A stretch of 37,577 nucleotides of DNA from a virus (Duplodnaviria; Heunggongvirae; Uroviricota; Caudoviricetes): the IMG/VR virus record IMGVR_UViG_2529292717_000013; one strand, written 5' to 3'. A model generated the notes under the pieces. That model did no database searches. It was not told the DNA's origin and saw only the letters and a list, made by a program, of their open reading frames with translations. Below, in pieces: positions 5,814-33,385 of the stretch (the stretch's first letter is position 1; the number at the start of each line of letters is the position of its first letter). The position numbers and the translations under genes are program-made.

Positions 5814-8633
5814 ATGACGGCAGAGTACATCAGGGACTGGCAACAACCGCGCCACGCAGTGGGGCGTGAAGGAACGGGGATCCCCGCTCCTGAATCCGCG
5901 CTTTCCTCCTGGCTGGATGCCTACCGGGCAGAGAACGAGCGCCGCCAGGAAATGGCTGATGCGGCGTTCTCCGCCACGCCGCTGGGCAACCTGATTAATA
6001 AAAGCCTGGACGCACAGGAAAAACAGGACAAAACCATCACACTGGCAGGAGACGCCAGAAAACAGGCACGTGGCGCGGTGGATGAAGCCATGGCCTCGCT
6101 GCGCCTGCTGCCGTCCTATCTGCGCGATCCGCTTATTCGCCACCTCTCCTTCCTGCGCAAAAAACAGGAAGCCGATCGCCGGAAAGGCAAAAAGAGCTGG
6201 CAGGCTGAACGCTACGCGCGCGGGACCCTGCGCAAAATATTCGAACGTCTGGATCGCACTGACGGGCGCTGGCTGACACCGGGTTATCGCTCCCTTGCCG
6301 GGCGCGAACGCCTGGACGATTTGCTTTACCTGCCGCAGCTCAACAAGCACCAGATACAGACGCTGGCCACCATGACGGCGGCGATGTTCAGCAGCACCTT
6401 CGAAAAACTCTGCGATGGCTTTGGCGCGACTGATGGCGAGCTGACCATGGATGTAACGCTGAAGGCTTATCAGATGCTGGCCCGCATGGCGTTACACCTG
6501 CACGCCATGCCTCCACATTATGACGCACTGACAACAGACAAAGACCGGAGGAACGAACCGGACACGGAGCTGCTGCCGGGCGCAATCCTTCGCTTGACCT
6601 GTGCGGAATGGTGGAAACGCAAACTATGGCTGTTGCGTTGTGAGTGGCGGGAAGAACAACTCCGCGCCGCCTGTCTGGTTTCCAGAAAAACATCCCCCTA
6701 TCTGAGCCAGGACGCGTTAAGCGAGTTTCGCGCACAGCGCGAGAAAACACGCGATTTCCTGAAAAGTTTCATGCTGGAAAATGAAGACGGGTTCACGATT
6801 GATCTCGAGACGGTGTATTACGCGGGAGTAAGTAACCCGGTTCACCGTAAGGCAGAAATGATGGCCACCATGAAGGGGCTGGAACTTCTGGCCGAAGCCC
6901 GTGGCGACAAAGCGGTGTTTCTGACTGTCACCTGCCCGTCAAAATACCACGCCACAACAGAGAACGGTCATCCGAACCCCAAATGGAACGGGGCCACCAT
7001 GCGCGACTCCAGCGATTACCTGGTTAACACGTTTTTTGCGGCGGTCCGCAAAAAACTGAACCGCGACGGCCTGCGCTGGTATGGCATCCGCACGGTGGAG
7101 CCTCACCATGACGGCACTGTGCACTGGCATATGATGGTCTTTGCACATCCGGACGAGATTGAAACCATCGTGTCCCACGTCTGCGATATTGCCATTCAGG
7201 AGCCGCCACGAGCTGGGCGATGACATAACTCCGCGTTTTAAGGCGGAGTACGTGACGGCTCAAAAGGCACACCAACCAGCTACATCGCCACCTACATCGG
7301 AAAGAACCTGGACAGCCGCGCCGTGGATGGCATCGACCCGAAAACGGGCAAGCCACGCGTTGACCACGAAACCGGAAAATCAATGGCCGAGAGCGTGGAA
7401 CGCGCCATCGGCTGGGCGCGCCTTCACCGGGTCCGCCAGTTCCAGTTCTTTGGCATCCCCTCCCGTCAGGTGTGGCGTGAACTCCGCCGCCTTGCCAGCC
7501 AGATGGCACGCAACCCGGAAGGCCCGCAACGGCTGAAGGATGACGCAATGGATGCGGTACTCGCTGCCGCTGATGCAGGATGTTTTGCCACCTACATAGA
7601 GAAACAGGGCGGCGTACTTGTTCCACGCAAAGACTACCTGATTCGCACCGCCTACGACCTCGCCGATGAGCTGAACGATTACGGCGAACAGAGCGTACAG
7701 ATTTACGGGATCTGGTCACCACTCATCGGGGAATCCTCCCGTGTGTGCACGCATCCGGATAACTGGAAGCTGGTAAGACGCAAACCGGAAGCGGAAGACA
7801 GCGCCCGCGAAAATGGTTTTGACCTTCAGGGCGGCCCTGCCGCCCCTTGGACTCGTGGCAATAACTGTCCCCGTGTACAGGAAACAGGCAACAGCGGGAC
7901 AGAACAGTCGAAAGAACGGCCAGCACCGTGGCCGCAGCTTCCTGACGGCGTTGAAGTGAACGAATGGATGCGCTCACTGAAACGGCACGAACGCCGGGCG
8001 CTGATGCGTTCGCTTCGTGACAAACAGGTAAAAAACAGCAGTGATGAAATGCAGAGCTGGACACAGAGCCGCAAACAGCAGCGGCCTTTGCCTGATAACC
8101 ACGAATTACTCGCTAAAGAATGGCGGGAGTCTGCCGAATCTCTCGGCCTGCATATCGGTGAACAGCAGATGCAGCACCTGCTACGGGGCGGCAGCCTGTA
8201 CGTTGACGGCAGCATCATTGCACCGCAGGGATATGAAATTGTACGCAAACCGGATACCCGCCCGGACAGCCGAATCACGCAGCTCTGGCAGCACCTGAGC
8301 CGTAATCACGGCGTAAGCAGCACGGAGATCCGCCATAACCCGGTCGCCAGCTATCTGGCACAGCTGGGGGCATCAGACCCCGAAGCCGCCGCACGCCTGG
8401 CATCCGCACTTCAGCAGGATCAGAACACCATGAAAACACCCGTTACCGTGCTTTCTGACATGCTGCGCGCCATCCGCGACGCAGAGCACGCACAGAGAAT
8501 CAGTGAAACCACTGAACGCGCCAGCCGCAAAGCAGACCTGCTGCAGGGTGGCCTGACCAGTGGAAACAAAAAACAGACAGAAACGGGATCCACAAATCCC
8601 GTAAATGAGCAAAAAACGCGCCGCGATATATGA
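5814..8633 (+). pseudogene. A: replication initiation endonuclease A (rolling-circle initiator, GPA family); frame interrupted at about 7195-7270
   Basis: Track ORFs 5814..7223 and 7323..8633 are in the same frame, separated by in-frame TGA (7221) and TAA (7239), while the +1 frame is open across the gap. HWHMMVF and YIATYIGKNLD motifs present. Confidence 0.8.
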
Positions 8634-8709: not shown

Positions 8710-9669
8710 ATGAAAATTTGTATCGACGACGGCTCCACCAACATCAAGCTGGCATGGACTGAGAACGGCGAACGCCGCAACGCCATCAGCCCGAACAGCT
8801 TCAAGTCGGAATGGTCTGCGCCGTTCGGTGGCACGCATCCCGCGAACTACATGCTTGATGGCGTGCGCTATGGCTTTGATCCGGTCAGCGATCGTTTTGT
8901 CCAGACGACTGACACGCAATACCAGTACAGCGATGTGAATGTAATCGCCATTCATCACGCGCTGGTCAAATCAGGCATCACGCCACAGGAGGTGGATGTG
9001 GTTGTCACCCTGCCACTGAGCGAGTATTTCGACACAAACGCACAGCCGGACATGGCCAACATCAACCGCAAAAAAGCGAACGTCATGCGCCCGGTGGAGT
9101 ACCAGAACGGCGAAGCATTCACTATCCGTAACGTACGGGTTATGCCTGAATCCATTCCGGCTGGCTTTAAGGCACTGGCTGACATGAGTCCGTTTGAATC
9201 CCTGCTGATTGTGGATTTGGGCGGAACCACGCTGGATGTGGCAAAGGTTCAGGGGCAGCTGGCAGGTATCAGCCAGGTGTTTTGCGATCCAAACGTAGGC
9301 GTTTCCCTGATGGCTGATGCCGTGCTGTCGGTGATGGCCACTAACGGTATGCGTACCAGTCACCACATCGCCAATACCATTATTGAGCACCGTCACGATG
9401 AAGCCTGGCTGCGCCAGCACATTCACAATGACGCGCATTACAACAGCCTGATGGCGGTTATTCGTGAAAAGGAGGAGACACTGAAACAACGAGTGATCCG
9501 CGCGCTGGCGGGTTTTTCCGGTTACGGGCGGGTGATGGTTGTCGGTGGAGGGGCGGAGATTGTGGCACCCGCTATCCGCGAAGCCTGCGGAGTTAATGCG
9601 ACTTTCATCGCGGACGGGGTGCCACAGTTTGCTCTGGTTAATGGGCTGTACGCAATGAACAAGGAGTAA
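8710..9669 (+). CDS. parM: actin-like segregation ATPase ParM/StbA
   Basis: 319 aa; N-terminus MKICIDDGSTNIKLAW and downstream blocks closely resemble plasmid R1 ParM as remembered. Confidence 0.85.
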   Translation: MKICIDDGSTNIKLAWTENGERRNAISPNSFKSEWSAPFGGTHPANYMLDGVRYGFDPVSDRFVQTTDTQYQYSDVNVIAIHHALVKSGITPQEVDVVVTLPLSEYFDTNAQPDMANINRKKANVMRPVEYQNGEAFTIRNVRVMPESIPAGFKALADMSPFESLLIVDLGGTTLDVAKVQGQLAGISQVFCDPNVGVSLMADAVLSVMATNGMRTSHHIANTIIEHRHDEAWLRQHIHNDAHYNSLMAVIREKEETLKQRVIRALAGFSGYGRVMVVGGGAEIVAPAIREACGVNATFIADGVPQFALVNGLYAMNKE

Positions 9670-9673
9670 ACCA

Positions 9674-9985
9674 ATGACGACACCAACCAGAAGAATAAGT
9701 TTCTATCTGAAGCCAGCTGCCGTCAAGAACGAAGGAGAAGCATGCGCATGGCTGGACAGCCTTACACCAGAAGCCCGCAAAAGCGGCCAACGCGTGGCTT
9801 TTCTGGCCGGGCTGGCACTTCTGAAGACGAATCCGGCAGAGGCTTACCGACTGGCCGCATGGGCTGATGATGAGATGTTACCTGTGACACAAATCAGCTC
9901 AAAAAAGTTTGAAGCACAGTCTGCACCAGTGGCTAAGATAACCAGCCAGATGGCTGGGAATATCCGGGCGTTATTTCCTGGGTAA
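9674..9985 (+). CDS. parR: ParR/StbB-like centromere-binding protein
   Basis: 103 aa; RRISFYLKP...AFLAGLALLKTNP...IRALFP resembles R1 ParR; immediately after parM. Confidence 0.7.
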   Translation: MTTPTRRISFYLKPAAVKNEGEACAWLDSLTPEARKSGQRVAFLAGLALLKTNPAEAYRLAAWADDEMLPVTQISSKKFEAQSAPVAKITSQMAGNIRALFPG

Positions 9986-10105
9986 AAGCATCTGCGCGAA
10001 AAATGCTCACATTTATAGAAACAGTATCATTCCATTTGGCGCACTTACTTCAATAATCGATCTGTTAAACAAATAGATTGTCTATTATCTATCGATTAAA
10101 ACGAT

Positions 10106-10170
10106 CAATTATCTTGACAGTAATGTGCCTTTTTGTAAGATCGTTCGCATTGTGAGCGACAAGATAATTG
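10106..10170 (+). promoter_or_regulatory. candidate promoter (TTGACA-N16-TAAGAT) bracketed by an 11-bp inverted repeat CAATTATCTTG / CAAGATAATTG
   Basis: Read directly; the -35 hexamer overlaps the left arm. Confidence 0.35.
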
Positions 10171-10247
10171 CGCGGCATTGTCCATGCAAAACGCCCCAAT
10201 AGCAGCAACTATTGGGGCGTAGAACTCGGTCGGACTCACTTAACCTG

Positions 10248-10331
10248 ATATGCGTGCCTTCCGAAGTAAATCAAAATGTGCGTCGTATATTTTATTGCTT
10301 ACACGCACCTCTGTAAAGGCACGCATATTTT
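10248..10331 (+). terminator. large hairpin (13-bp perfect inverted repeat ATATGCGTGCCTT, 55-nt spacer with nested inverted repeat) followed by a T-run; candidate attenuator in the ORF89 leader
   Basis: Inverted repeat arms at about 10248-10260 and 10316-10328, then TTTTT; ends about 20 bp before the ORF89 start. Confidence 0.4.
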
Positions 10332-10349
10332 TCCTATGAGGTAAATAAA

Positions 10350-10619
10350 GTGCGGGCTAAAACAGGTATTTGCAAGAATCCTCATCGTTATAACCCAACA
10401 TTTCTGTCTCTCCCTGAATATCAAGGACAAGAAGGTCGGCACAAATGCGCTGCCTGTGCTTTTGAGCTAGGCATAAAAGATGCGCTTGAAGGACGCGCTA
10501 TGGCTCAGAATGATTTAGTTTTAGCTAACATTCCGTTTAGCCAGGCTGGAACTGTAAGGCACAGAGATGCTTATGAAGCATATGTTCGTGGTTGGCGATT
10601 AATACACAGCAACAATTGA
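10350..10619 (+). CDS. hypothetical Cys/His-rich small protein (hotspot cargo)
   Basis: 89-aa ORF with GTG start and GAGG RBS; CKNPHRY...HKCAACAFE suggests metal binding. Confidence 0.5.
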   Translation: MRAKTGICKNPHRYNPTFLSLPEYQGQEGRHKCAACAFELGIKDALEGRAMAQNDLVLANIPFSQAGTVRHRDAYEAYVRGWRLIHSNN

Positions 10620-10627
10620 TATTTTTG

Positions 10628-10651
10628 AAGCGCCGATAAGGCGCTTTTTTT
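10628..10651 (+). terminator. rho-independent terminator (AAGCGCC-GATAA-GGCGCTT + T-run)
   Basis: Directly after the ORF89 stop. Confidence 0.6.
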
Positions 10652-11179
10652 GTTTGCACGATAGTGCACAAGTTTGCACAATTTTTTTGAACGACTTTTT
10701 GTACTTCCGGCCCGCGTGGCGGCTGGATCCGTCAAGGATCCGTACGTGCACAAAAAACGCGTTTTTTCTACGCGCAGGTGACGGGGGAACAGCCCGCGTT
10801 TCAGGGGGTAAATAGCATTCCCTGAACGATGTCGCAGAGACACAACAGAATGGCCATATTTCTCACGCTGAGCATGAAAAAGGCGTGAGGGCTTTTGATT
10901 TGATGGGGTGAAAGGTAAGGCCGTCAAAATCGCACTGAGGCAGCGAGAACATACAGTCAACGTGGTGGGATTGCGTAAGAGTCTGACCGTCGATGGTGGC
11001 GATAAACTGGAAGGCGTCGTGAAATTATCTGATTGATACAGGAGCTGGAGAGTCGGGGCATAAATTTTTTATGCCCCGGCGAAGCAGCAGACAAGCGAAG
11101 CGCGTCAGCGATACGGCACCTTGCCGACCATACTTCGTAAGTGCAAAATACGAGCAAAGAAATCAATGGAGGCTGTCTT

Positions 11180-11704
11180 ATGGTCATTAATTACAAGCAG
11201 TTAAGAGAAAAACGGGAGCAGGTAAAGGAGAGCTTTCGCCGCAATGAAGATCTGACCCCGCTTGTACGCCTTGCCCAGGGCATTGTTGATGCTTATGAAA
11301 TCTCGCTGGAGCTGCCATCACAGACCTGGACAGATAGCGACGGTAATCGCCAGCATTACGTTTCATGCGGACTGGAAGCAGCCGAAGGATTTCGCAGAAT
11401 GCCTTTATCTCAGATCCCTGCCGCTACCCCCAAAGCAAGGGGCGGCAATGATGAGCGAAAACTGATTTTCAGCATTGAGACAGTGGTTGACGACACACCT
11501 GGCGAAGTCGCCTTCGTGCATACTCCTCTTTCGATCGCAATGTATAACGATGAAATACAGGTTCGCGTTAATAATAATATCGTGCCACTTAAAGAAGGTA
11601 ATTCACCCTACACCACCGTTTGTGAAGCCATTCAATATTACGTTTTCTCTGAAATTGATAATCTCAAGCCTGACGGCACCCAGAAAATGGTTCAGCTCTG
11701 GTAA
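11180..11704 (+). CDS. hypothetical protein (hotspot cargo)
   Basis: 174 aa from the ATG at 11180 with a GGAGG RBS 7 nt upstream; no family recognised. Confidence 0.5.
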   Translation: MVINYKQLREKREQVKESFRRNEDLTPLVRLAQGIVDAYEISLELPSQTWTDSDGNRQHYVSCGLEAAEGFRRMPLSQIPAATPKARGGNDERKLIFSIETVVDDTPGEVAFVHTPLSIAMYNDEIQVRVNNNIVPLKEGNSPYTTVCEAIQYYVFSEIDNLKPDGTQKMVQLW

Positions 11705-11735
11705 AAAGGACAGCCCCATCACGGGGCTGTTTTTT
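11705..11735. terminator. bidirectional rho-independent terminator between ORF174 and Q
   Basis: A-run, ACAGCCCC-atcac-GGGGCTGT, T-run. Confidence 0.6.
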
Positions 11736-12765
11736 CATCAAGAAGAGCATAAGAGTTAAAACGGATCACCTCTTCGCCAAGCCAGTCATTGATGTGCTTC
11801 ATGGCCTCCATAACGGGCATCAGCTCGTTAATTGCGTAAACCCGCGCGGCCTTCTCCACATCACCAAACGCACTTTTTTCGCCCGGCATCGCCCCCATCA
11901 GTTGCGGCGGAACACGGTGCGCAGCCAGCACATCATCACGGGATGCCGCCTTAACATTCATGAACTCATCTTTTGCGGTGATCTGCTGGAACGGCAAAAT
12001 TTGCACCCCCTCTTTGCCCCCGTTGGGCGCATGAATGAGCACGTTTTTAAACGCACCACCACCACGTGCCCCCTGTAGCGTTTCTTTCAGGGAGTCCATG
12101 CTTTCGCGGTTTACCTGCGCTGCACCGATGTAGATGATGCACCCGGCGTGGGATCCGTTGTCGTAGTACAGTTTTCTGAACATGTCCGCCGAATGAGAAA
12201 GGCTGGCCGAGAGTAATGCGCCAAGATATTCCGGCATGCCGTAGATTTCCTGGTTAATATCCGGATTCATCAGGTGGCACACTTTGCCAGGACGAAACTG
12301 AAACGCGTCCTTGCCATCCTGCACATACCACCATGATTCAAGATCGCTTCCGCGTCGCATGTATTTCGCCAGGGCGTGCCGTAATTTAAGCGGTTCGCCG
12401 AGCATATTGCTCCGAAGCTCAAGGAATGCGTTACCGAACACAAACCAGTCCAGCGCCAGCGCCGAGAAATCCTGCCGGGAAAGCAGCGGGTGCGGAATAT
12501 AGCAGCCGAGCAATACATTGCGCTTAAAGTAAAGCGCAGACTGATGCCAGGACGTTTGCCGGGCAGCTCTTGCCAGACCGTACCAGTCCACCGGGGTTTC
12601 ATACCACCGCCCGTTATCAGCACAGTACATATTGTCCAGCAGGTCATGCCCGGTCAGGCGATAAGGACCATCAAATGTGAATGCACTGAGCGATGATTCT
12701 TTCCTGAGCGCATCAGCGAGATCAATGCGTGAACTCATGCGCACTTTTTTATTTTTTCTGCTCAT
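11719..12765 (-). CDS. Q: portal protein
   Basis: 348 aa; homology to P2 gpQ by recollection; adjacent to and co-oriented with the large terminase. Confidence 0.9.
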   Translation of the reverse strand: MSRKNKKVRMSSRIDLADALRKESSLSAFTFDGPYRLTGHDLLDNMYCADNGRWYETPVDWYGLARAARQTSWHQSALYFKRNVLLGCYIPHPLLSRQDFSALALDWFVFGNAFLELRSNMLGEPLKLRHALAKYMRRGSDLESWWYVQDGKDAFQFRPGKVCHLMNPDINQEIYGMPEYLGALLSASLSHSADMFRKLYYDNGSHAGCIIYIGAAQVNRESMDSLKETLQGARGGGAFKNVLIHAPNGGKEGVQILPFQQITAKDEFMNVKAASRDDVLAAHRVPPQLMGAMPGEKSAFGDVEKAARVYAINELMPVMEAMKHINDWLGEEVIRFNSYALLDEKTAP

Positions 12766-14516
12766 CAGAACTCCATAACCGTGAAACGCTCGTTTTCTCC
12801 TTCGCCGCCAATCGGTTCATTAATGACAGCAAGCATGGTTGCCCACGCAAGGTCGCCGTGGCTGATCCCCCTCGCTCGGTCCGTTTCGTAAGTGATAAAG
12901 CCGCCCGGTGTTTTCACCTTACGCACGGCGTTAAAGGCCGCGACCAGCTCGCGTTCGGCACGATCGTATTCCCACCGCCCGGCACGCATTATTTGCAGCA
13001 TTTTCAGTACCAGCGACCGTTTTGATGACAGCGTGAAGGTGTACGGAATAGCAGCAGGGAAAAACCGTTTCACTATCTGATAAACGGCATCCCCGTGCCC
13101 GCCAGTCGCATCAATGCCGATGTGTTCCACGTTGTAGCGACACGTGAACTCTTCAATGACTCTGGCCTGTTCTTCAAACTCCAGCCCCTGAACGCGTCGC
13201 GTCTCCACCGTTCGAAAACGGCCACCAGGAACAGCCGGAGGAACCACCACGGACACCGCGCCGCTGTCGCCGTTTCCACTGCTGCCGTTTGCGTCATACC
13301 CAATCCATACCGGACGATTCCCCATCGGGCGGGGAGCAAAAGGTTTCCAGTCTTTCCAGTCGTCGTATCCATCAACACCGCAGCCAATCAGGATATTCAG
13401 GTTAAATGCCGATTCCCCTTCGCGGACAAACTCACACATATAGAGATTGCGGAACTCGTCTTCGGTGTTTTCATCACGAATTTCATCAATATCGGTGTGT
13501 TTCCAGCCGTGATTAACCACATCTTCCAGCGTGACAATTTGCCGCCACGTCCGGTCGGGGCAGATAAGTCCGTTATGCAGCGTTTTCCAGTCCACAGAAA
13601 AACGCTGGCGTTTATGCGCGGCCTTTTTCTCGTTCCAGCGGTCGCCGTTCCAATAGACGTATGCCTCGTGCGTTTCGGTGGATGGCGTGGAGAAGTAGGT
13701 GCGCCGCAGTCCGCTGAGGGTTGCCATAGCGCCAGCCACCTTGCGCAGTTCAGCAAAGCGACTGACCCAGAAAAATTCATCAAAATAAAAATTGCCTGTG
13801 TAGGACTGTGCCGTCGCAGCAGAAGTACCGAGAAAATGCAGTTCTGCGCCGTTGGAGAGGATGATTTTATCGCCCCCTTTCAGCTCCACATCAACTTCAG
13901 CCGCGGCCTTCTGAATAATGCTTTTAAACTGGAACGCCTGACGACGCGACGCAGACAAAAAAATCTGGTTACGCTGGTAAGGTTGTGCCACATCGTCACG
14001 CAGCGCCATCAGCAGTGCTTCCTGTGCAAAATACCAGGTCGCCCCAATCTGTCGGGATTTCAGGATCATCCTGTTACGTATCCCGGCTTCACTGCAAAGG
14101 GTCAGGGAGTCAAACCAGCCCCGCTGATGCCACTCCAGCCTGCTGATGATTTTTTCCCGCAGTGCGGCAATCTGCTCCGGCGTGAAATGATTTTTAAGTT
14201 TTTTCGCCCGGCCTTTCTTTCCTGTGGCCGTCGCATCCGGCTGGCCATCATGCAGTTTTTTAAGCTGCCGGGTCAGCAGGTCTATTTCCTTAAAGTCACC
14301 ACCTGTTTTATTCTGTTTTTCAGTAAGCTGGATGAGGCGCGCATCGATGGACTGCGTGACACGCTGCACGGGTGGCGTTTCATCCCACTGGTCGCGTTTT
14401 TTCCACGCATAAATCGTGTTCGGGTTTATTCCCATCAGACGTGATATTTCTGCGGGCGGATAACCCTGCCAGTAAAGTTGCCGCGCACGCTGGCGCACAA
14501 AAGCGTCCTGAATCAT
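12765..14516 (-). CDS. P: terminase large (ATPase) subunit
   Basis: 583 aa; P2 gpP-like. Confidence 0.9.
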   Translation of the reverse strand: MIQDAFVRQRARQLYWQGYPPAEISRLMGINPNTIYAWKKRDQWDETPPVQRVTQSIDARLIQLTEKQNKTGGDFKEIDLLTRQLKKLHDGQPDATATGKKGRAKKLKNHFTPEQIAALREKIISRLEWHQRGWFDSLTLCSEAGIRNRMILKSRQIGATWYFAQEALLMALRDDVAQPYQRNQIFLSASRRQAFQFKSIIQKAAAEVDVELKGGDKIILSNGAELHFLGTSAATAQSYTGNFYFDEFFWVSRFAELRKVAGAMATLSGLRRTYFSTPSTETHEAYVYWNGDRWNEKKAAHKRQRFSVDWKTLHNGLICPDRTWRQIVTLEDVVNHGWKHTDIDEIRDENTEDEFRNLYMCEFVREGESAFNLNILIGCGVDGYDDWKDWKPFAPRPMGNRPVWIGYDANGSSGNGDSGAVSVVVPPAVPGGRFRTVETRRVQGLEFEEQARVIEEFTCRYNVEHIGIDATGGHGDAVYQIVKRFFPAAIPYTFTLSSKRSLVLKMLQIMRAGRWEYDRAERELVAAFNAVRKVKTPGGFITYETDRARGISHGDLAWATMLAVINEPIGGEGENERFTVMEF

Positions 14517-30248: not shown

Positions 30249-31429
30249 CAGGCACCTCCCAGCACCGCAAATGCAGGTTCAAAGTATTCATCAGTAAACG
30301 TCTGGTAAAGCTCCATGTCTTCCAGTGGCGGAACAGGCGTATATTTGTAGCGAATACGCACACGCCCCTGACGTAAATCCGTGGTGCTGTTATCCACCAC
30401 GTCATACCAGCACTCCGCGCCAATCAGTTTCCCGGCAGTAACCAGTGAATCCAGTTTTGCCCTGATGGCACTGATAACATCCTTCACGTTCGCAGGCGTC
30501 AGTGGACTGTCGATGGTTTCAAACTGCGCTTCTGCAATTGAATCAGCCAGCACCTGTGCGGTTCGGGTATACACCTCAAAGATGTAGGCGTTCGTTTCCG
30601 GTGTGCGGTTGCCCCAGAAGCGGAACCCGTTGCGACGAATAATGGTCGTGATTTCTTTGTTGTTGAGGCTGTTGGCATCGCTGTCTTCGGCCTGCAACGA
30701 CCAGAACACATGCCTCGACATCCCCAGCACATTTTTAACCGGAACGTTGGACAGCGATTTGTGCCAGCCCTGCTCATGGTCAATGTACGCACGAAGGCCG
30801 CACGCATAAGCAGGCGCGGGGAACGTTTCGTTTTCGCCACTTTTCGGGTTGTAGGCGATGAAGTCCGGCCATAAGAGCATCACCTCACGTTCGTTGAATT
30901 TCTGGCGGTAGGTAATCGCTTCAGCCATCGTGTTACAGCCGTGACATGAGGCATACACAAATGCGCGCAGTTTACCCGCAATCACGCACAGGGATTTTGT
31001 CACCGCCTCCGTGTCCAGCTCCGGCGCGGCCAGAATACGCGGACGGTATCCGATGCTTTCATCCTGCTCTGCAACAAGCAGCGCATACATCCCCGTATAG
31101 CTGCCGTCATCCTCAGAACCACCGATAACCAGTTGATCCTGCGTTTTCGTCTTCTTCTTTGTGTTCAGCCACGCGAACGACGATCACCTTTGTGCTCACC
31201 TGGTCTGCGATGGCCTTAAGCGCACGATAAAGCGTCCCCGTTGTCCGCATTTTCCCAGCACGTCATTGACGCGGGTCAGCAGTGTGGGCTTGTTCAGCGG
31301 GAACAGCTTCGCGTCCGCATCATCCGCCGTTGCCACGATACCGATAACGCTGGAATCAACATCGTTAATCGCTGTTACCAGGTCGGTATTTTCCGTAACA
31401 CGGGCACCATGAAAACGAGTTTCACTCAT
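30248..31429 (-). pseudogene. FI: tail sheath protein FI; compensating pair of frame changes at about 31140-31245
   Basis: Track ORFs 31196..31429 and 30248..31090 are in the same frame; the conserved middle segment (TLYRALKAIADQVSTKVIVVRVAEHKEEDENA) is in another frame. Confidence 0.85.
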
Positions 31430-31585
31430 AGCTTCAGCCCCTTGTATCCGTTAAATGATTCGGCAACAATCATCACCCACCACGCGCGTAATCTCACCCC
31501 TGCGCCGTTCTCCCGCCACGGCGACAACAAAAAGCAGTACCCCCCTCCGCACGCACATGCGACCATGCCGCACAGGGAGGGAAAG

Positions 31586-32689
31586 ATGACCGACACCACC
31601 ATGCAATTGCTCAGTCAGGGCACAGACCCCGTGAAAATGCCGGATTTTGATATTCTCGCCGAGGGTAAAACGCTGTCCGGCGTGGCAGAACGCCTGATGA
31701 GCCTGTCACTGACCGACAACCGGGGATTTGAGGCGGACCAGCTCACCATCACGCTGGATGATGCCGATGGCCAGTTGCAGCTACCGCCACGGGGCGCGCG
31801 TCTGACGGTTCTCATTGGCTGGAAAGGAGAACCGCTGACAGAAAAAGGCACTTACATTGTTGATGAAATCGCTCACGAAGGACCGCCGGACAGGCTGACT
31901 GTTTCAGCCAGAAGCGCAGATTTTCGGGATGAATTTAACGTTAAACGTGAGGTGTCCTGGCATGATGTGACCGTTGAGCGTGTGGTATCCGCCATCGCTC
32001 ATCGGTACGGTCTGAAACCGCAAATCAGCGAAATGCTGATGGATATCGAAATCGACCACGCCGACCAGACCGAAGAAAGCGACATGTCCTTCTTACGCGC
32101 ATGGCGGAAATGCTGGGCGCAATCACCACGGTAAAAAGCGGAATCTGTTATTCATATGCCGGCGGTGGCGTGAACGCACAGGGCCAGCCGTTGCCATCGT
32201 TCGCCATCACCGCAGCAGGGCGATCGCCATCAGTTCCGCATTGCTGACCGCGAAGCGTATACGGGGGTACGCGCTTACTGGCTTGATCTTAATTACGGGA
32301 AAAAGAAAAAAGTCAGCGTGAAACGCCGCAAACCGCCAAAACCCAAAAAGGAGAAAAGCAGCAGCCGTGAAGGTGATTATATGGAAGGCGCGGAAGGAAA
32401 TGTGTTTGTGTTACGCAAGACTTATCAGAACGAGCAGGCAGCAAGACGCGCAGCGGCGGCAAAGTGGCAGCAGCTACAACGCGGAGCCGCATCATTCTCC
32501 ATCACACTGGCACGTGGACGAGCAGAACTCTACCCCGAAATGCATGGCACGGTAACAGGATTTAAAAGCGAGATTGATAATCAGGACTGGATTATTGCAA
32601 AAGCCGGGCACACCATTGATAACAGCGGCTTTACCACGCAGCTTGAGCTTGAGGCAAAAATCCCGGAATGGATAGCGGAAACAGAGTGA
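31586..32689 (+). pseudogene. D: tail protein D (late control gene D family); compensating pair of frame changes at about 32095-32225
   Basis: Start at the ATG after a GGGAGGG RBS (MTDTTMQLLSQG...); conserved segments in frames 2, 1, 2; C-terminal part is track ORF 32318..32689. Confidence 0.8.
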
Positions 32690-32731
32690 GCAACTTAGAA
32701 TAGCGGCAGCACCACGTTAAGGGAGGTCGCT

Positions 32732-32992
32732 ATGTTCCGTTGTCCGCTTTGTGGCGCATCTGCCCGTATCCGCACCAGTCGTCCGGAAAATGATTCAAAC
32801 ACCGTGCGGCAAAAGTATTACCAGTGTAACAACCTGGAATGCGGCATAAGTTTCTCAACACTGGAAGCTTTCCATAAATTCACATCGAAACACGCCTCCG
32901 GCGTTCACTCATCAGAAGGTATCCCGTGGCATGAGCTGCCAGCTTCACACAGGGGAAACAATCAGATGAGTTTGCCTTTATCTCAGAATTAA
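32732..32992 (+). CDS. ogr: Ogr/Delta-type zinc-finger late transcription activator
   Basis: 86 aa; MFRCPLCGASARIRTSR...YYQCNNLECGISFSTLEAF matches the Ogr C-x2-C...C-x4-C pattern. Confidence 0.85.
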   Translation: MFRCPLCGASARIRTSRPENDSNTVRQKYYQCNNLECGISFSTLEAFHKFTSKHASGVHSSEGIPWHELPASHRGNNQMSLPLSQN

Positions 32993-33182
32993 CAGGCAGA
33001 ATTGCCGGAGTAACAAAAAAGCGATAGATTACGCGCGGGTGCCTTTCGGCTGATGGTCGGAGGGAATACCCGAAGGCCAGATGTGGAAAGGCCCCGGAAA
33101 ACATTTCTGTTTAACCGAGGCCCTAACCGTCTAACCTTAGCAAGTGATAGGTTAGCGCCTCCCTGAAAAAGGAGCAAGCGCT

Positions 33183-33323
33183 ATGTCGCAAAAATCGCTT
33201 ACGGCCATCACGTTCTGCGTGACGGCAATCCTCATCATCTGGATGCTGCACGGTTCGCTGTGCGAAATACGGATGAGCTTCTGGGGAGCGGAGTTTGCGG
33301 CGTTCTTACAGTGTAAGCAGTAA
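33183..33323 (+). CDS. hok: Hok/Gef-family type I toxin (small membrane protein)
   Basis: 46 aa (below the track cutoff): MSQKSLTAITFCVTAILIIWMLHGSLCEIRMSFWGAEFAAFLQCKQ, with N-terminal TM and SLCEIR / AAFL motifs as in Hok proteins. Confidence 0.7.
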   Translation: MSQKSLTAITFCVTAILIIWMLHGSLCEIRMSFWGAEFAAFLQCKQ

Positions 33324-33385
33324 GGAAACCGCGACGGGGGAGCAATCCCCCGTCAATCGGTTGCCAGGGTAAGGTCGATAAGGCA

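What the first reader, a model, noticed from the sequence alone, without database searches (positions are those of the whole stretch)
11180..11704. Unknown 174-aa protein occupying the last slot of the A-Q hotspot
It has its own RBS and a bidirectional terminator, lies in the slot where P2 carries tin/old, and matches no family I recognise. Together with ORF89 it is a candidate anti-phage or accessory function.
Basis: inference. Interest (0 to 1): 0.5.

Follow-up and report, generated by a model that had tools for sequence, protein, structure and literature searches.

The report
Uncharacterised prophage moron beside portal gene
The 174-codon gene is real: it is a self-contained accessory cassette inserted next to the portal gene of a P2-like E. 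coli prophage, and it belongs to a phage-only protein family of unknown function that is a plausible but untested player in conflicts between phages.

Summary
ORF174 (11180-11704, +) is a real gene. It has a GGAGG ribosome-binding site, a verified two-way terminator and pN/pS of about 0.12. The window is a P88-like (Xuanwuvirus) P2-type prophage.

ORF174 is an insertion/deletion cassette (about 11109-11737). It sits between the portal stop codon and an older hairpin that follows the portal gene, on the portal side of the putative cos site. P2's tin/old lie on the other side of cos. The cassette is present in 397 of the 1142 complete E. coli genomes that carry the flanking block. Only 74 of those also carry ORF89, so the two genes are not a unit.

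The protein is phrog_5091. It has no Pfam, NCBIfam, PADLOC or PDB sequence match, and a confident AlphaFold model has no significant fold match. It is soluble, mildly acidic and has no catalytic motif.

Relatives occur only in temperate phages of Enterobacterales, at many different late-operon positions, with no conserved partner. They nearly always carry their own terminator (18 of 20). This is a classic moron.

Its function is unproven. The best guess is a prophage-expressed single-protein exclusion factor (about 0.35). Counter-defence and non-immune roles remain open. The gene is listed as "hypothetical" in a published hotspot catalogue, and a machine-learning predictor flags a probable allele as defensive, but it has never been tested.

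The parts
11109..11737 (+). The inserted cassette (moron): putative promoter, ribosome-binding site, ORF174 and terminator. Boundaries are good to within a few bases.
   Evidence: It is absent from phage 520873 and P88_4B11, where the conserved block ...GCGTCAG joins the portal 3' end directly. It is present in PhiR44_2 and 569R5. It is present in 397 of 1142 E. coli genomes that carry the flanking block. GC is 0.474 against 0.516 for the window; GC3 is 0.48 against 0.59-0.60 for portal and terminase.
11121..11149 (+). Putative sigma-70 promoter: TTGCCG, 17-nt spacer, CAAAAT (8 of 12 matches).
   Evidence: It is below the threshold of the scanning tool and was found by eye and by script. The 63%-identical Salmonella homologue keeps TTGTCT-17-CAAAAT at the same distance from the ATG, although the spacer has diverged. 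This is inferred, not shown.
11168..11172 (+). Ribosome-binding site GGAGG, 7 nt before the ATG.
   Evidence: Read directly from the sequence. GGAG is conserved upstream of homologues.
11180..11704 (+). ORF174 coding sequence, 174 aa, family phrog_5091.
   Evidence: AlphaFold model with pLDDT 89.7 and pTM 0.80: a helical hairpin, an antiparallel sheet and a C-terminal helix.
11705..11736 (.). Two-way intrinsic terminator shared by ORF174 and the portal-terminase operon.
   Evidence: (I15).
11719..12765 (-). Portal gene Q. Its last five codons and stop lie inside the cassette (…LLDEKTAP* here, against …LLDTQPTS* or …LLDIQPTS* in phages without the cassette).
11054..11078 (.). Perfect 11+11 hairpin (CGGGGCATAAA/TTTATGCCCCG). 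It sits just downstream of the portal stop in phages without ORF174 and occupies the position of P2's tQ. It has no T-run.
   Evidence: (I14).
10652..10796 (.). Putative cos/packaging element: TTGCAC/GTGCAC repeats and a GC-rich centre, within the 458-bp conserved non-coding block 10655-11112.
   Evidence: It is conserved between this window and a diverged Salmonella P2-like prophage while the flanks differ. The block is present in 1142 of 5426 E. coli genomes. The virion-derived record P88_4B11 starts at about window 10700. P2 has analogous TGCAT repeats to the right of its cos. Calling it cos is an inference.

Best explanation
ORF174 is a moron, meaning a self-contained accessory transcription unit (weak sigma-70-type promoter, GGAGG, ORF, two-way terminator). 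It was inserted exactly at the 3' end of the portal gene of a P88-like P2-type prophage, on the portal side of the putative cos site. It encodes a soluble, mildly acidic protein of about 20 kDa from a phage-restricted family (phrog_5091). The predicted fold is an N-terminal helical hairpin, an antiparallel sheet and a long C-terminal helix, with no conserved catalytic residues and no conserved partner gene. Most likely it is made from the repressed prophage, like P2 old and tin, and acts on its own as a stoichiometric binder of a protein or nucleic-acid target. Its most probable role is to exclude superinfecting phages (single-protein defence). Shown: the gene is real, its anatomy, the insertion polymorphism, its independence from ORF89, the travelling terminator and the phage-only distribution. 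Inferred: the promoter, expression in the lysogen, binding rather than catalysis, and the defence role. The 0.35 confidence refers to the defence role. The anatomical (moron) part is about 0.9.
For: The insertion/deletion has clean boundaries, and the slot has only two states, empty or ORF174. The terminator is verified on both strands. 18 of 20 family members in unrelated contexts carry a terminator within about 120 nt downstream, against 41 of 228 control ORF ends (p = 8e-11). The -35/-10 boxes are conserved in the Salmonella homologue. GC and GC3 are lower than in the neighbouring genes. pN/pS is 0.12-0.13. The gene is convergent with the late Q-P operon, so late transcription cannot drive it. 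It lies in the gpA-gpQ hotspot, where 3 of 8 further systems that were tested (besides old-tin) defended (PMC9122126). A 174-aa E. coli hypothetical, WP_000236487.1, is probably an allele, because the alleles seen here are WP_000236489, 492, 493 and 495. DefensePredictor gives it log-odds 4.65, above the strict cut-off of 4 (PMC13092281). There is no transmembrane segment, pI is about 5, and no invariant acid/His/Cys set exists across 51 diverse members.
Against: No homology to any known defence protein (PADLOC) or to Tin. No phenotype data exist. Defence genes are usually shared with plasmids and chromosomal islands, but this family is found essentially only in prophages: 2 of 72,556 plasmid records, and every one of about 25 examined contexts is a phage. 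Many relatives sit co-directionally inside late operons, which would suit a lytic-cycle function. The promoter match is weak (8 of 12). The DefensePredictor score is marginal, may partly reflect the genomic neighbourhood, and refers to an accession whose sequence I could not check. The copy in ETEC H10407 is disrupted by IS1, so the gene is dispensable.
Confidence: 0.35

Rival explanations
1. Counter-defence or takeover protein that benefits the phage itself. It would be a small inhibitor that binds and neutralises a host or satellite immunity component during infection or induction.
Confidence: 0.2
2. A lysogenic-conversion or regulatory accessory protein unrelated to phage-phage conflict, for example one that modulates host physiology or stress responses, or fine-tunes prophage maintenance.
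For: Moron architecture is generic for lysogenic-conversion genes. The capping-protein/FP-domain-like topology suggests a dimerising scaffold or adaptor. The gene is enriched in pathogenic E. coli lineages among the best hits (ETEC, O111), although this was not tested statistically.
Against: There is no signal peptide or membrane segment and no DNA-binding motif or Pfam hit. The hotspot position and the machine-learning score favour immunity.
Confidence: 0.2
3. Packaging or morphogenesis helper tied to cos, the portal or the terminase.
For: It is adjacent to the portal and the putative cos here, and in E. coli L025 and Salmonella L026. It is close to terminase genes in L004, L005, L006 and L017.
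Against: It is absent from functional close relatives (P88, 520873). Other relatives sit after Q, in tail or baseplate clusters, or right after gpA. The slot is empty in about 65% of P88-like prophages.
Confidence: 0.05
4. One reading: a multi-part system made of ORF89, the upstream RNA region and ORF174.
For: They are neighbours in this window and in 74 complete E. coli genomes. The arrangement is listed in Rousset Table S5.
Against: ORF174 occurs without ORF89 in 323 of 397 genomes and with other cargos. ORF89 occurs without ORF174 (phage 520873). The two are separated by a terminator and the putative cos block. The profile comparison shows no relation.
Confidence: 0.03

Closest known systems
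P2 old and tin (lysogenic-conversion exclusion genes in the gpA-gpQ interval)
   Same: Non-essential cargo of a P2-type prophage in the cos-proximal gpA-gpQ interval. P2's old-tin unit has its own transcript start, and ORF174 appears to have its own promoter. Tin, like ORF174, is a single soluble protein.
   Different: No sequence relation to Tin (hhalign probability 0.4%) and no PADLOC hit. In P2, old and tin lie between A and cos, whereas ORF174 lies between the putative cos and Q, an interval that in P2 holds only the terminator tQ. No phenotype is known.
Morons of lambdoid and other temperate phages (promoter-gene-terminator units; concept from background knowledge)
   Same: Presence/absence between otherwise collinear genomes, its own terminator, atypical base composition, many insertion sites and dispensability.
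   Different: The promoter is only inferred. Here the cassette also supplies the terminator and the last five codons of the portal gene.
phrog_5091 / RefSeq hypothetical proteins WP_000236489, 493 and 495
   Same: Full-length match (E 1.4e-66). All 51 diverse relatives tested fall in this family.
   Different: Nothing. This is the family, and it has no assigned function.
DefensePredictor 'predicted novel defence genes' (PMC13092281)
   Same: A 174-aa E. coli hypothetical protein with an adjacent accession number scores log-odds 4.65, above the cut-off of 4.
   Different: It is not among the cloned or validated units (no hit in the tables of tested units). The identity of that accession with ORF174 rests on length and accession adjacency only.
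Actin capping protein subunits and the FP dimerisation domain (PI31/Fbxo7)
   Same: The order of elements is the same: N-terminal helices, an antiparallel sheet and a long C-terminal helix lying on the sheet.

Membership tests
Moron (autonomous accessory unit in a temperate phage) | Present or absent between otherwise collinear phage genomes, with sharp boundaries | tested here: met
   Alignment with phages 520873, PhiR44_2 and 569R5. 397 of 1142 E. coli genomes carry it, and the rest have the block abutting the portal gene.
Moron (autonomous accessory unit in a temperate phage) | Its own transcription terminator | tested here: met
   Hairpin plus T-run, z -5.9. 18 of 20 relatives have one against 41 of 228 controls, p = 8e-11.
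Moron (autonomous accessory unit in a temperate phage) | Its own promoter, active in the lysogen | tested here: inconclusive
   TTGCCG-17-CAAAAT is 8 of 12 and was missed by the scan. It is conserved in the Salmonella homologue. Promoter-like sites occur upstream of 9 of 20 relatives against 49 of 203 controls, p = 0.04. Activity cannot be tested here.
Moron (autonomous accessory unit in a temperate phage) | Base composition differs from the neighbouring genes | tested here: met
   GC 0.474 against 0.53-0.54 for portal and terminase; GC3 0.48 against 0.59-0.60.
P2 gpA-gpQ hotspot defence system (Rousset et al. 2022) | Encoded between replication gene A and portal gene Q of a P2-like prophage | tested here: met
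   Alleles WP_000236495 and WP_000236489 are listed in Table S5 of PMC9122126.
P2 gpA-gpQ hotspot defence system (Rousset et al. 2022) | Homology or domain shared with a known or candidate defence protein | tested here: not met
   PADLOC-DB gives 0 hits. There are no Pfam or NCBIfam hits.
P2 gpA-gpQ hotspot defence system (Rousset et al. 2022) | Measured protection against phages | not testable with these tools
   It is not among the systems tested in PMC9122126 (no hit in Table S2) or PMC13092281.
P2 Tin | Sequence or profile similarity to Tin | tested here: not met
   hhalign probability 0.4%.
P2 tin/old slot (between A and cos) | Located on the A side of the cos site | tested here: not met
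   The gene lies on the portal side of the conserved cos-like element 10652-10796. In P2, cos is at 1-19, Q at 187-1221 and old/tin at 30684-33380. The cos assignment in this window is inferred.
Two-gene system ORF89 + ORF174 | Consistent co-occurrence of the two genes | tested here: not met
   74 of 397 genomes. Each gene is also found without the other.
Anti-CRISPR-type counter-defence locus | Adjacent helix-turn-helix (Aca-like) regulator; significant structural match to a known inhibitor | tested here: not met
phrog_5091 | Full-length profile match | tested here: met
   E 1.4e-66, residues 1-168 against profile positions 1-164 of 164. 51 of 51 relatives match.

The most novel reading that the evidence does not exclude
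ORF174 is the founding characterisable member of a new single-protein immunity or anti-immunity family. It has a fold with no solved relative and spreads among temperate phages of Enterobacterales as a terminator-insulated cassette. It would act by binding, not catalysis, on a conserved phage or host component. It would also mark the cos-Q junction of P88-like phages as a separate two-state cargo site, distinct from the classical tin/old side of the hotspot.
Probability: 0.4. Interest if true: 0.55.

Novelty: new member of a known kind. Interest (0 to 1): 0.38.

Why it matters
About 7% of complete E. coli genomes (397 of 5426), including ETEC and O111 lineages, carry this gene. It is also one of the commonest unannotated entries in the published P2 hotspot catalogue. 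It is a single small gene with no partner, no known domain and no solved structural relative. A positive plating assay would therefore add a mechanistically new, easily studied one-protein system to the phage-conflict repertoire. It would also show that the portal side of cos is a cargo site. A negative result would be informative too, because it would help calibrate hotspot- and machine-learning-based defence predictions at marginal scores.

Tried and rejected
1. Pfam, NCBIfam and PADLOC scans of ORF174 and of 51 relatives gave nothing above noise.

2. A PDB sequence search with the single protein hit designed helical-repeat proteins (E down to 4e-7, residues 124-168). With the family profile these hits vanish, so I treat them as compositional artefacts.

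4. The P2 cos 19-mer is not in the window at up to 3 mismatches, and BLAST of the P2 cos region against the block finds nothing significant. The cos assignment therefore rests on conservation with Salmonella and on one record's start point.

5. Rfam finds no RNA family in 9500-12000 apart from a sub-threshold hit on a hairpin.

6. No P2-type late-promoter dyad (TGT-N12-ACA) was seen by eye upstream of ORF174.

7. The genome-contig scan returned only 3 loci, and two alignment-based locus searches failed for lack of conserved stretches.

8. I could not confirm the sequence of WP_000236487.1. Four further genome look-ups gave only alleles 489 and 495 and WP_115763421.

9. Literature searches for phrog_5091 and WP_000236495 found no paper.

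Full report
**The observation.** The window is a P2-type prophage of the P88 group (Xuanwuvirus, Peduoviridae). The region is 97% identical to Escherichia phage 520873 and 91-95% identical to P88, PhiR44_2 and others. It is 99.9% identical to prophages in ETEC and other E. coli strains. The gene order is replication gene A, ParM (8710-9669), ParR-like (9674-9985), ORF89 (10350-10619), a terminator (10627-10647), a 458-bp conserved non-coding block (10655-11112), ORF174 (11180-11704), a hairpin, then portal Q (11719-12765, -) and terminase P (12765-14516, -).

ORF174 starts at ATG 11180, 7 nt after GGAGG (11168-11172). The longer GTG-11141 reading frame is not supported, because the ten full-length close homologues aligned start at the same position (MVINY, or MTVNY in the most distant one). 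The hairpin at 11705-11735 is flanked by an A-run and a T-run and folds strongly on both strands (-21.5 and -18.2 kcal/mol, z -5.9 and -5.1). The portal stop codon lies inside it. Against 97%-identical alleles the gene shows 9-10 synonymous and 4 non-synonymous differences (pN/pS 0.12-0.13).

**Anatomy: an insertion at the portal 3' end.** Alignment with related phages shows that the conserved block ends at ...GCGTCAG (about 11108). In phages 520873 and P88_4B11 this sequence contains the portal stop codon, so the portal gene abuts the block. In this window, and in PhiR44_2 and 569R5, about 630 bp are inserted there. The insert brings a putative promoter, the ribosome-binding site, ORF174, the two-way terminator and a replacement for the last five portal codons (…EKTAP* instead of …TQPTS* or …IQPTS*).

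Just upstream of the insertion point is a perfect 11+11 hairpin (11054-11078). In phages without the insert it follows the portal stop, in the position of P2's terminator tQ.

Among 5426 complete E. coli genomes, 1142 carry the block and 397 carry block plus ORF174. In all 17 sampled rows of the rest, the portal gene overlaps the end of the block. The site therefore appears to have two states, empty or ORF174. The cassette is lower in GC (0.474; GC3 0.48) than portal and terminase (0.53-0.54; GC3 0.59-0.60).

**Position relative to cos.** The first about 150 bp of the block (10652-10796) are conserved in a diverged Salmonella P2-like prophage whose flanks differ: TTTGCACGATAGTGCACAAnTTTGCACAATTTTTTTGA…GCGCGCAGGTGACGGGGGAACAGCCC. 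The record for P88_4B11 starts at about window 10700. P2 has analogous TGCAT repeats just to the right of its cos.

I infer that cos lies near 10712-10735. This is not shown. The P2 cos 19-mer itself is absent, and BLAST shows no significant similarity. If the inference is right, ORF174 lies between cos and Q. In P2 that interval (1-187) holds only tQ, and old and tin are on the other side of cos. The gene is therefore inside the gpA-gpQ hotspot as operationally defined by Rousset et al. (PMC9122126), but it is not in the tin/old position.

**Independence from ORF89.** ORF174 is found with other upstream cargos:
- five small genes in PhiR44_2;
- a different set in 569R5;
- DUF4760 plus a hypothetical protein in strain E41-1;
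- an HTH-peptidase M78 protein in Salmonella.

ORF89 occurs without ORF174 in phage 520873. Only 74 genomes have both genes. A terminator and the putative cos block separate them. They are not a unit.

**The protein family.** ORF174 matches phrog_5091 over its full length (E 1.4e-66) and nothing in Pfam, NCBIfam or PADLOC. A word-indexed search found only Enterobacteriaceae relatives. An exhaustive profile search found 89 cluster representatives, nearly all single-domain proteins of 155-185 aa. All 51 that I aligned also match phrog_5091, and none matches Pfam convincingly. All named members are 'hypothetical' and come from Enterobacterales: Escherichia, Salmonella, Yersinia, Trabulsiella, Lelliottia, Edwardsiella, Serratia, Sodalis, Rosenbergiella and Xenorhabdus.

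Conserved motifs are SLxLP…W.D..G…PYV, TV(I/V)DD.P.GG and EVC..IK. There is no invariant set of catalytic-type residues. The protein is mildly acidic (pI 5.0, family median 5.1) and has no hydrophobic segment.

**Genomic contexts of relatives.** Closer relatives (47-63% identity) are also in P2-type prophages:
- directly next to the portal gene and convergent with it, in E. coli L025 and Salmonella L026/L027;
- right after gpA and before HicAB and Phd-Fic modules, in Trabulsiella.

Distant relatives sit in quite different phages and places:
- after antiterminator Q and before the lysis genes (L007, L013, L014, L024);
- between the spanin or lysis genes and the terminase (L004, L017);
- before HNH and the small terminase subunit (L005, L006);
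- between the tail assembly chaperone and the tape measure of a myovirus (shown for L018; L021-L023 have the same gene-size pattern);
- within a baseplate cluster (L015);
- next to a PixA gene (L016);
- after an antirepressor (L019).

No partner gene is conserved. In 18 of 20 loci a terminator-like hairpin plus T-run follows within about 120 nt, against 41 of 228 for other ORF ends in the same loci (p = 8e-11). Promoter-like sites are only mildly enriched upstream (9 of 20 against 49 of 203, p = 0.04). However, the window's TTGCCG-17-CAAAAT is kept as TTGTCT-17-CAAAAT at the same distance from the ATG in Salmonella, despite a diverged spacer.

The family is essentially absent from plasmids (2 of 72,556 records, both 97.7% identical to ORF174). 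It is rare among deposited phage genomes: 4 P88-like phages of 50,697 records, plus one weak hit. These are the properties of a promiscuous, self-insulated moron of temperate phages.

**What it most likely does.** Shown: it is a dispensable, selected, autonomous single-gene unit encoding a soluble protein that does not look like an enzyme. Inferred: it is expressed from the prophage, because it is convergent with the late operon and has its own signals, as P2 old and tin do.

The position in the hotspot raises the prior for immunity. In Rousset et al., old-tin plus 3 of 8 further P2 systems defended. In a later survey, 15% of unknown P2 proteins (32% when genomic context is considered) carry a machine-learning defence signal (PMC13586616). 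DefensePredictor lists a 174-aa/525-nt E. coli hypothetical protein, WP_000236487.1, at log-odds 4.65 (range 4.25-4.91), above its strict cut-off of 4. It is labelled 'predicted novel defense gene' and was not cloned (PMC13092281). ORF174 alleles seen here are WP_000236489, 492, 493 and 495, so 487 is very probably another allele, but I could not check its sequence.

I therefore favour a single-protein exclusion factor acting by binding (0.35). The phage-only distribution and the late-operon sites of relatives keep a counter-defence role alive (0.2). A non-immune conversion or regulatory role is equally possible (0.2). A packaging role (0.05) and the ORF89-coupled system (0.03) are unlikely.

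**Comparison with known systems and novelty.** It works like a moron, and it sits in a known hotspot. It is not a member of any known defence or anti-defence family. It is already catalogued as 'hypothetical' in Rousset Table S5: at least 167 loci for WP_000236495, and this window's exact arrangement StbA + Plasmid_stab_B + WP_001390707 + WP_000236489. It is also catalogued as phrog_5091. No paper in the searchable library mentions either identifier. I rate it a new, uncharacterised member of a known kind (hotspot or moron cargo). Interest is moderate: it is common, simple and structurally orphan, but nothing about it is surprising for a P2 hotspot until a phenotype is shown.

Noticed in passing
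window 7195-7260 (within gpA, 5814-8633): Relative to phage P88, the replication gene A has a 2-nt deletion near 7202 and a 1-nt deletion near 7255. These put about 53 nt out of frame and create stop codons at 7221-7223 and about 7239. The ORF finder therefore splits gpA into 5814-7223 and 7323-8633. Either the prophage is replication-defective or these are sequencing errors.
   Followed up: partly
window 10652-10796 (within conserved block 10655-11112): A 458-bp non-coding block is conserved next to the portal gene in 1142 of 5426 E. coli genomes. Its first 150 bp (TTGCAC/GTGCAC repeats and a GC-rich core) are also conserved in a diverged Salmonella P2-like prophage. This is probably the cos/terminase recognition region rather than an RNA gene. 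There is no Rfam hit.
   Followed up: partly
window 10908-11036 (+): A 42-codon ORF annotated in RefSeq (WP_000676503) and in several phage records shows pN/pS of 0.97 against P88_4B11 (9 non-synonymous and 3 synonymous changes). The portal gene shows 0.01. It is probably not a protein-coding gene.
   Followed up: yes
L008 4061-5201 (E. coli SEC470 / ETEC H10407, NC_017633): In the prototype ETEC strain H10407, ORF174 is interrupted by an IS1 element. A 130-aa truncated product is annotated (WP_000236492).
   Followed up: no
window 8710-9985 and 9986-10349: A ParM/ParR (StbA/Plasmid_stab_B) partition module sits in a chromosomally integrated P2-type prophage. It is followed by a low-GC (0.39) stretch with perfect inverted repeats (10106-10116/10160-10170; 10248-10260/10316-10328), a strong hairpin (10191-10220) and promoter-like sites on both strands. 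This could be a centromere or a regulatory region for ORF89.
   Followed up: no
L007, L013, L014, L020-L024 (about 40 nt upstream of the aligned start): Many distant family members have a conserved upstream ATG with a strong AGGTGGT ribosome-binding site. It gives a 12-residue N-terminal extension (MLIRN…MEK.) that the E. coli P2-type subfamily lacks. The downstream ATGGAG then serves both as codons and as a ribosome-binding site.
   Followed up: partly
window 11719-11736 (-): The cassette replaces the last five residues of the portal protein (EKTAP here, against TQPTS or IQPTS in phages without it) and supplies a canonical terminator for the portal-terminase operon. The older hairpin at 11054-11078 has no T-run.
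   Followed up: partly
L028 5738-7053 (Trabulsiella guamensis P2-like prophage): In this prophage the ORF174 homologue sits directly after gpA and is followed by HicB-type and Phd-Fic/Doc toxin-antitoxin modules. This is a different cargo layout of the same hotspot.
   Followed up: no
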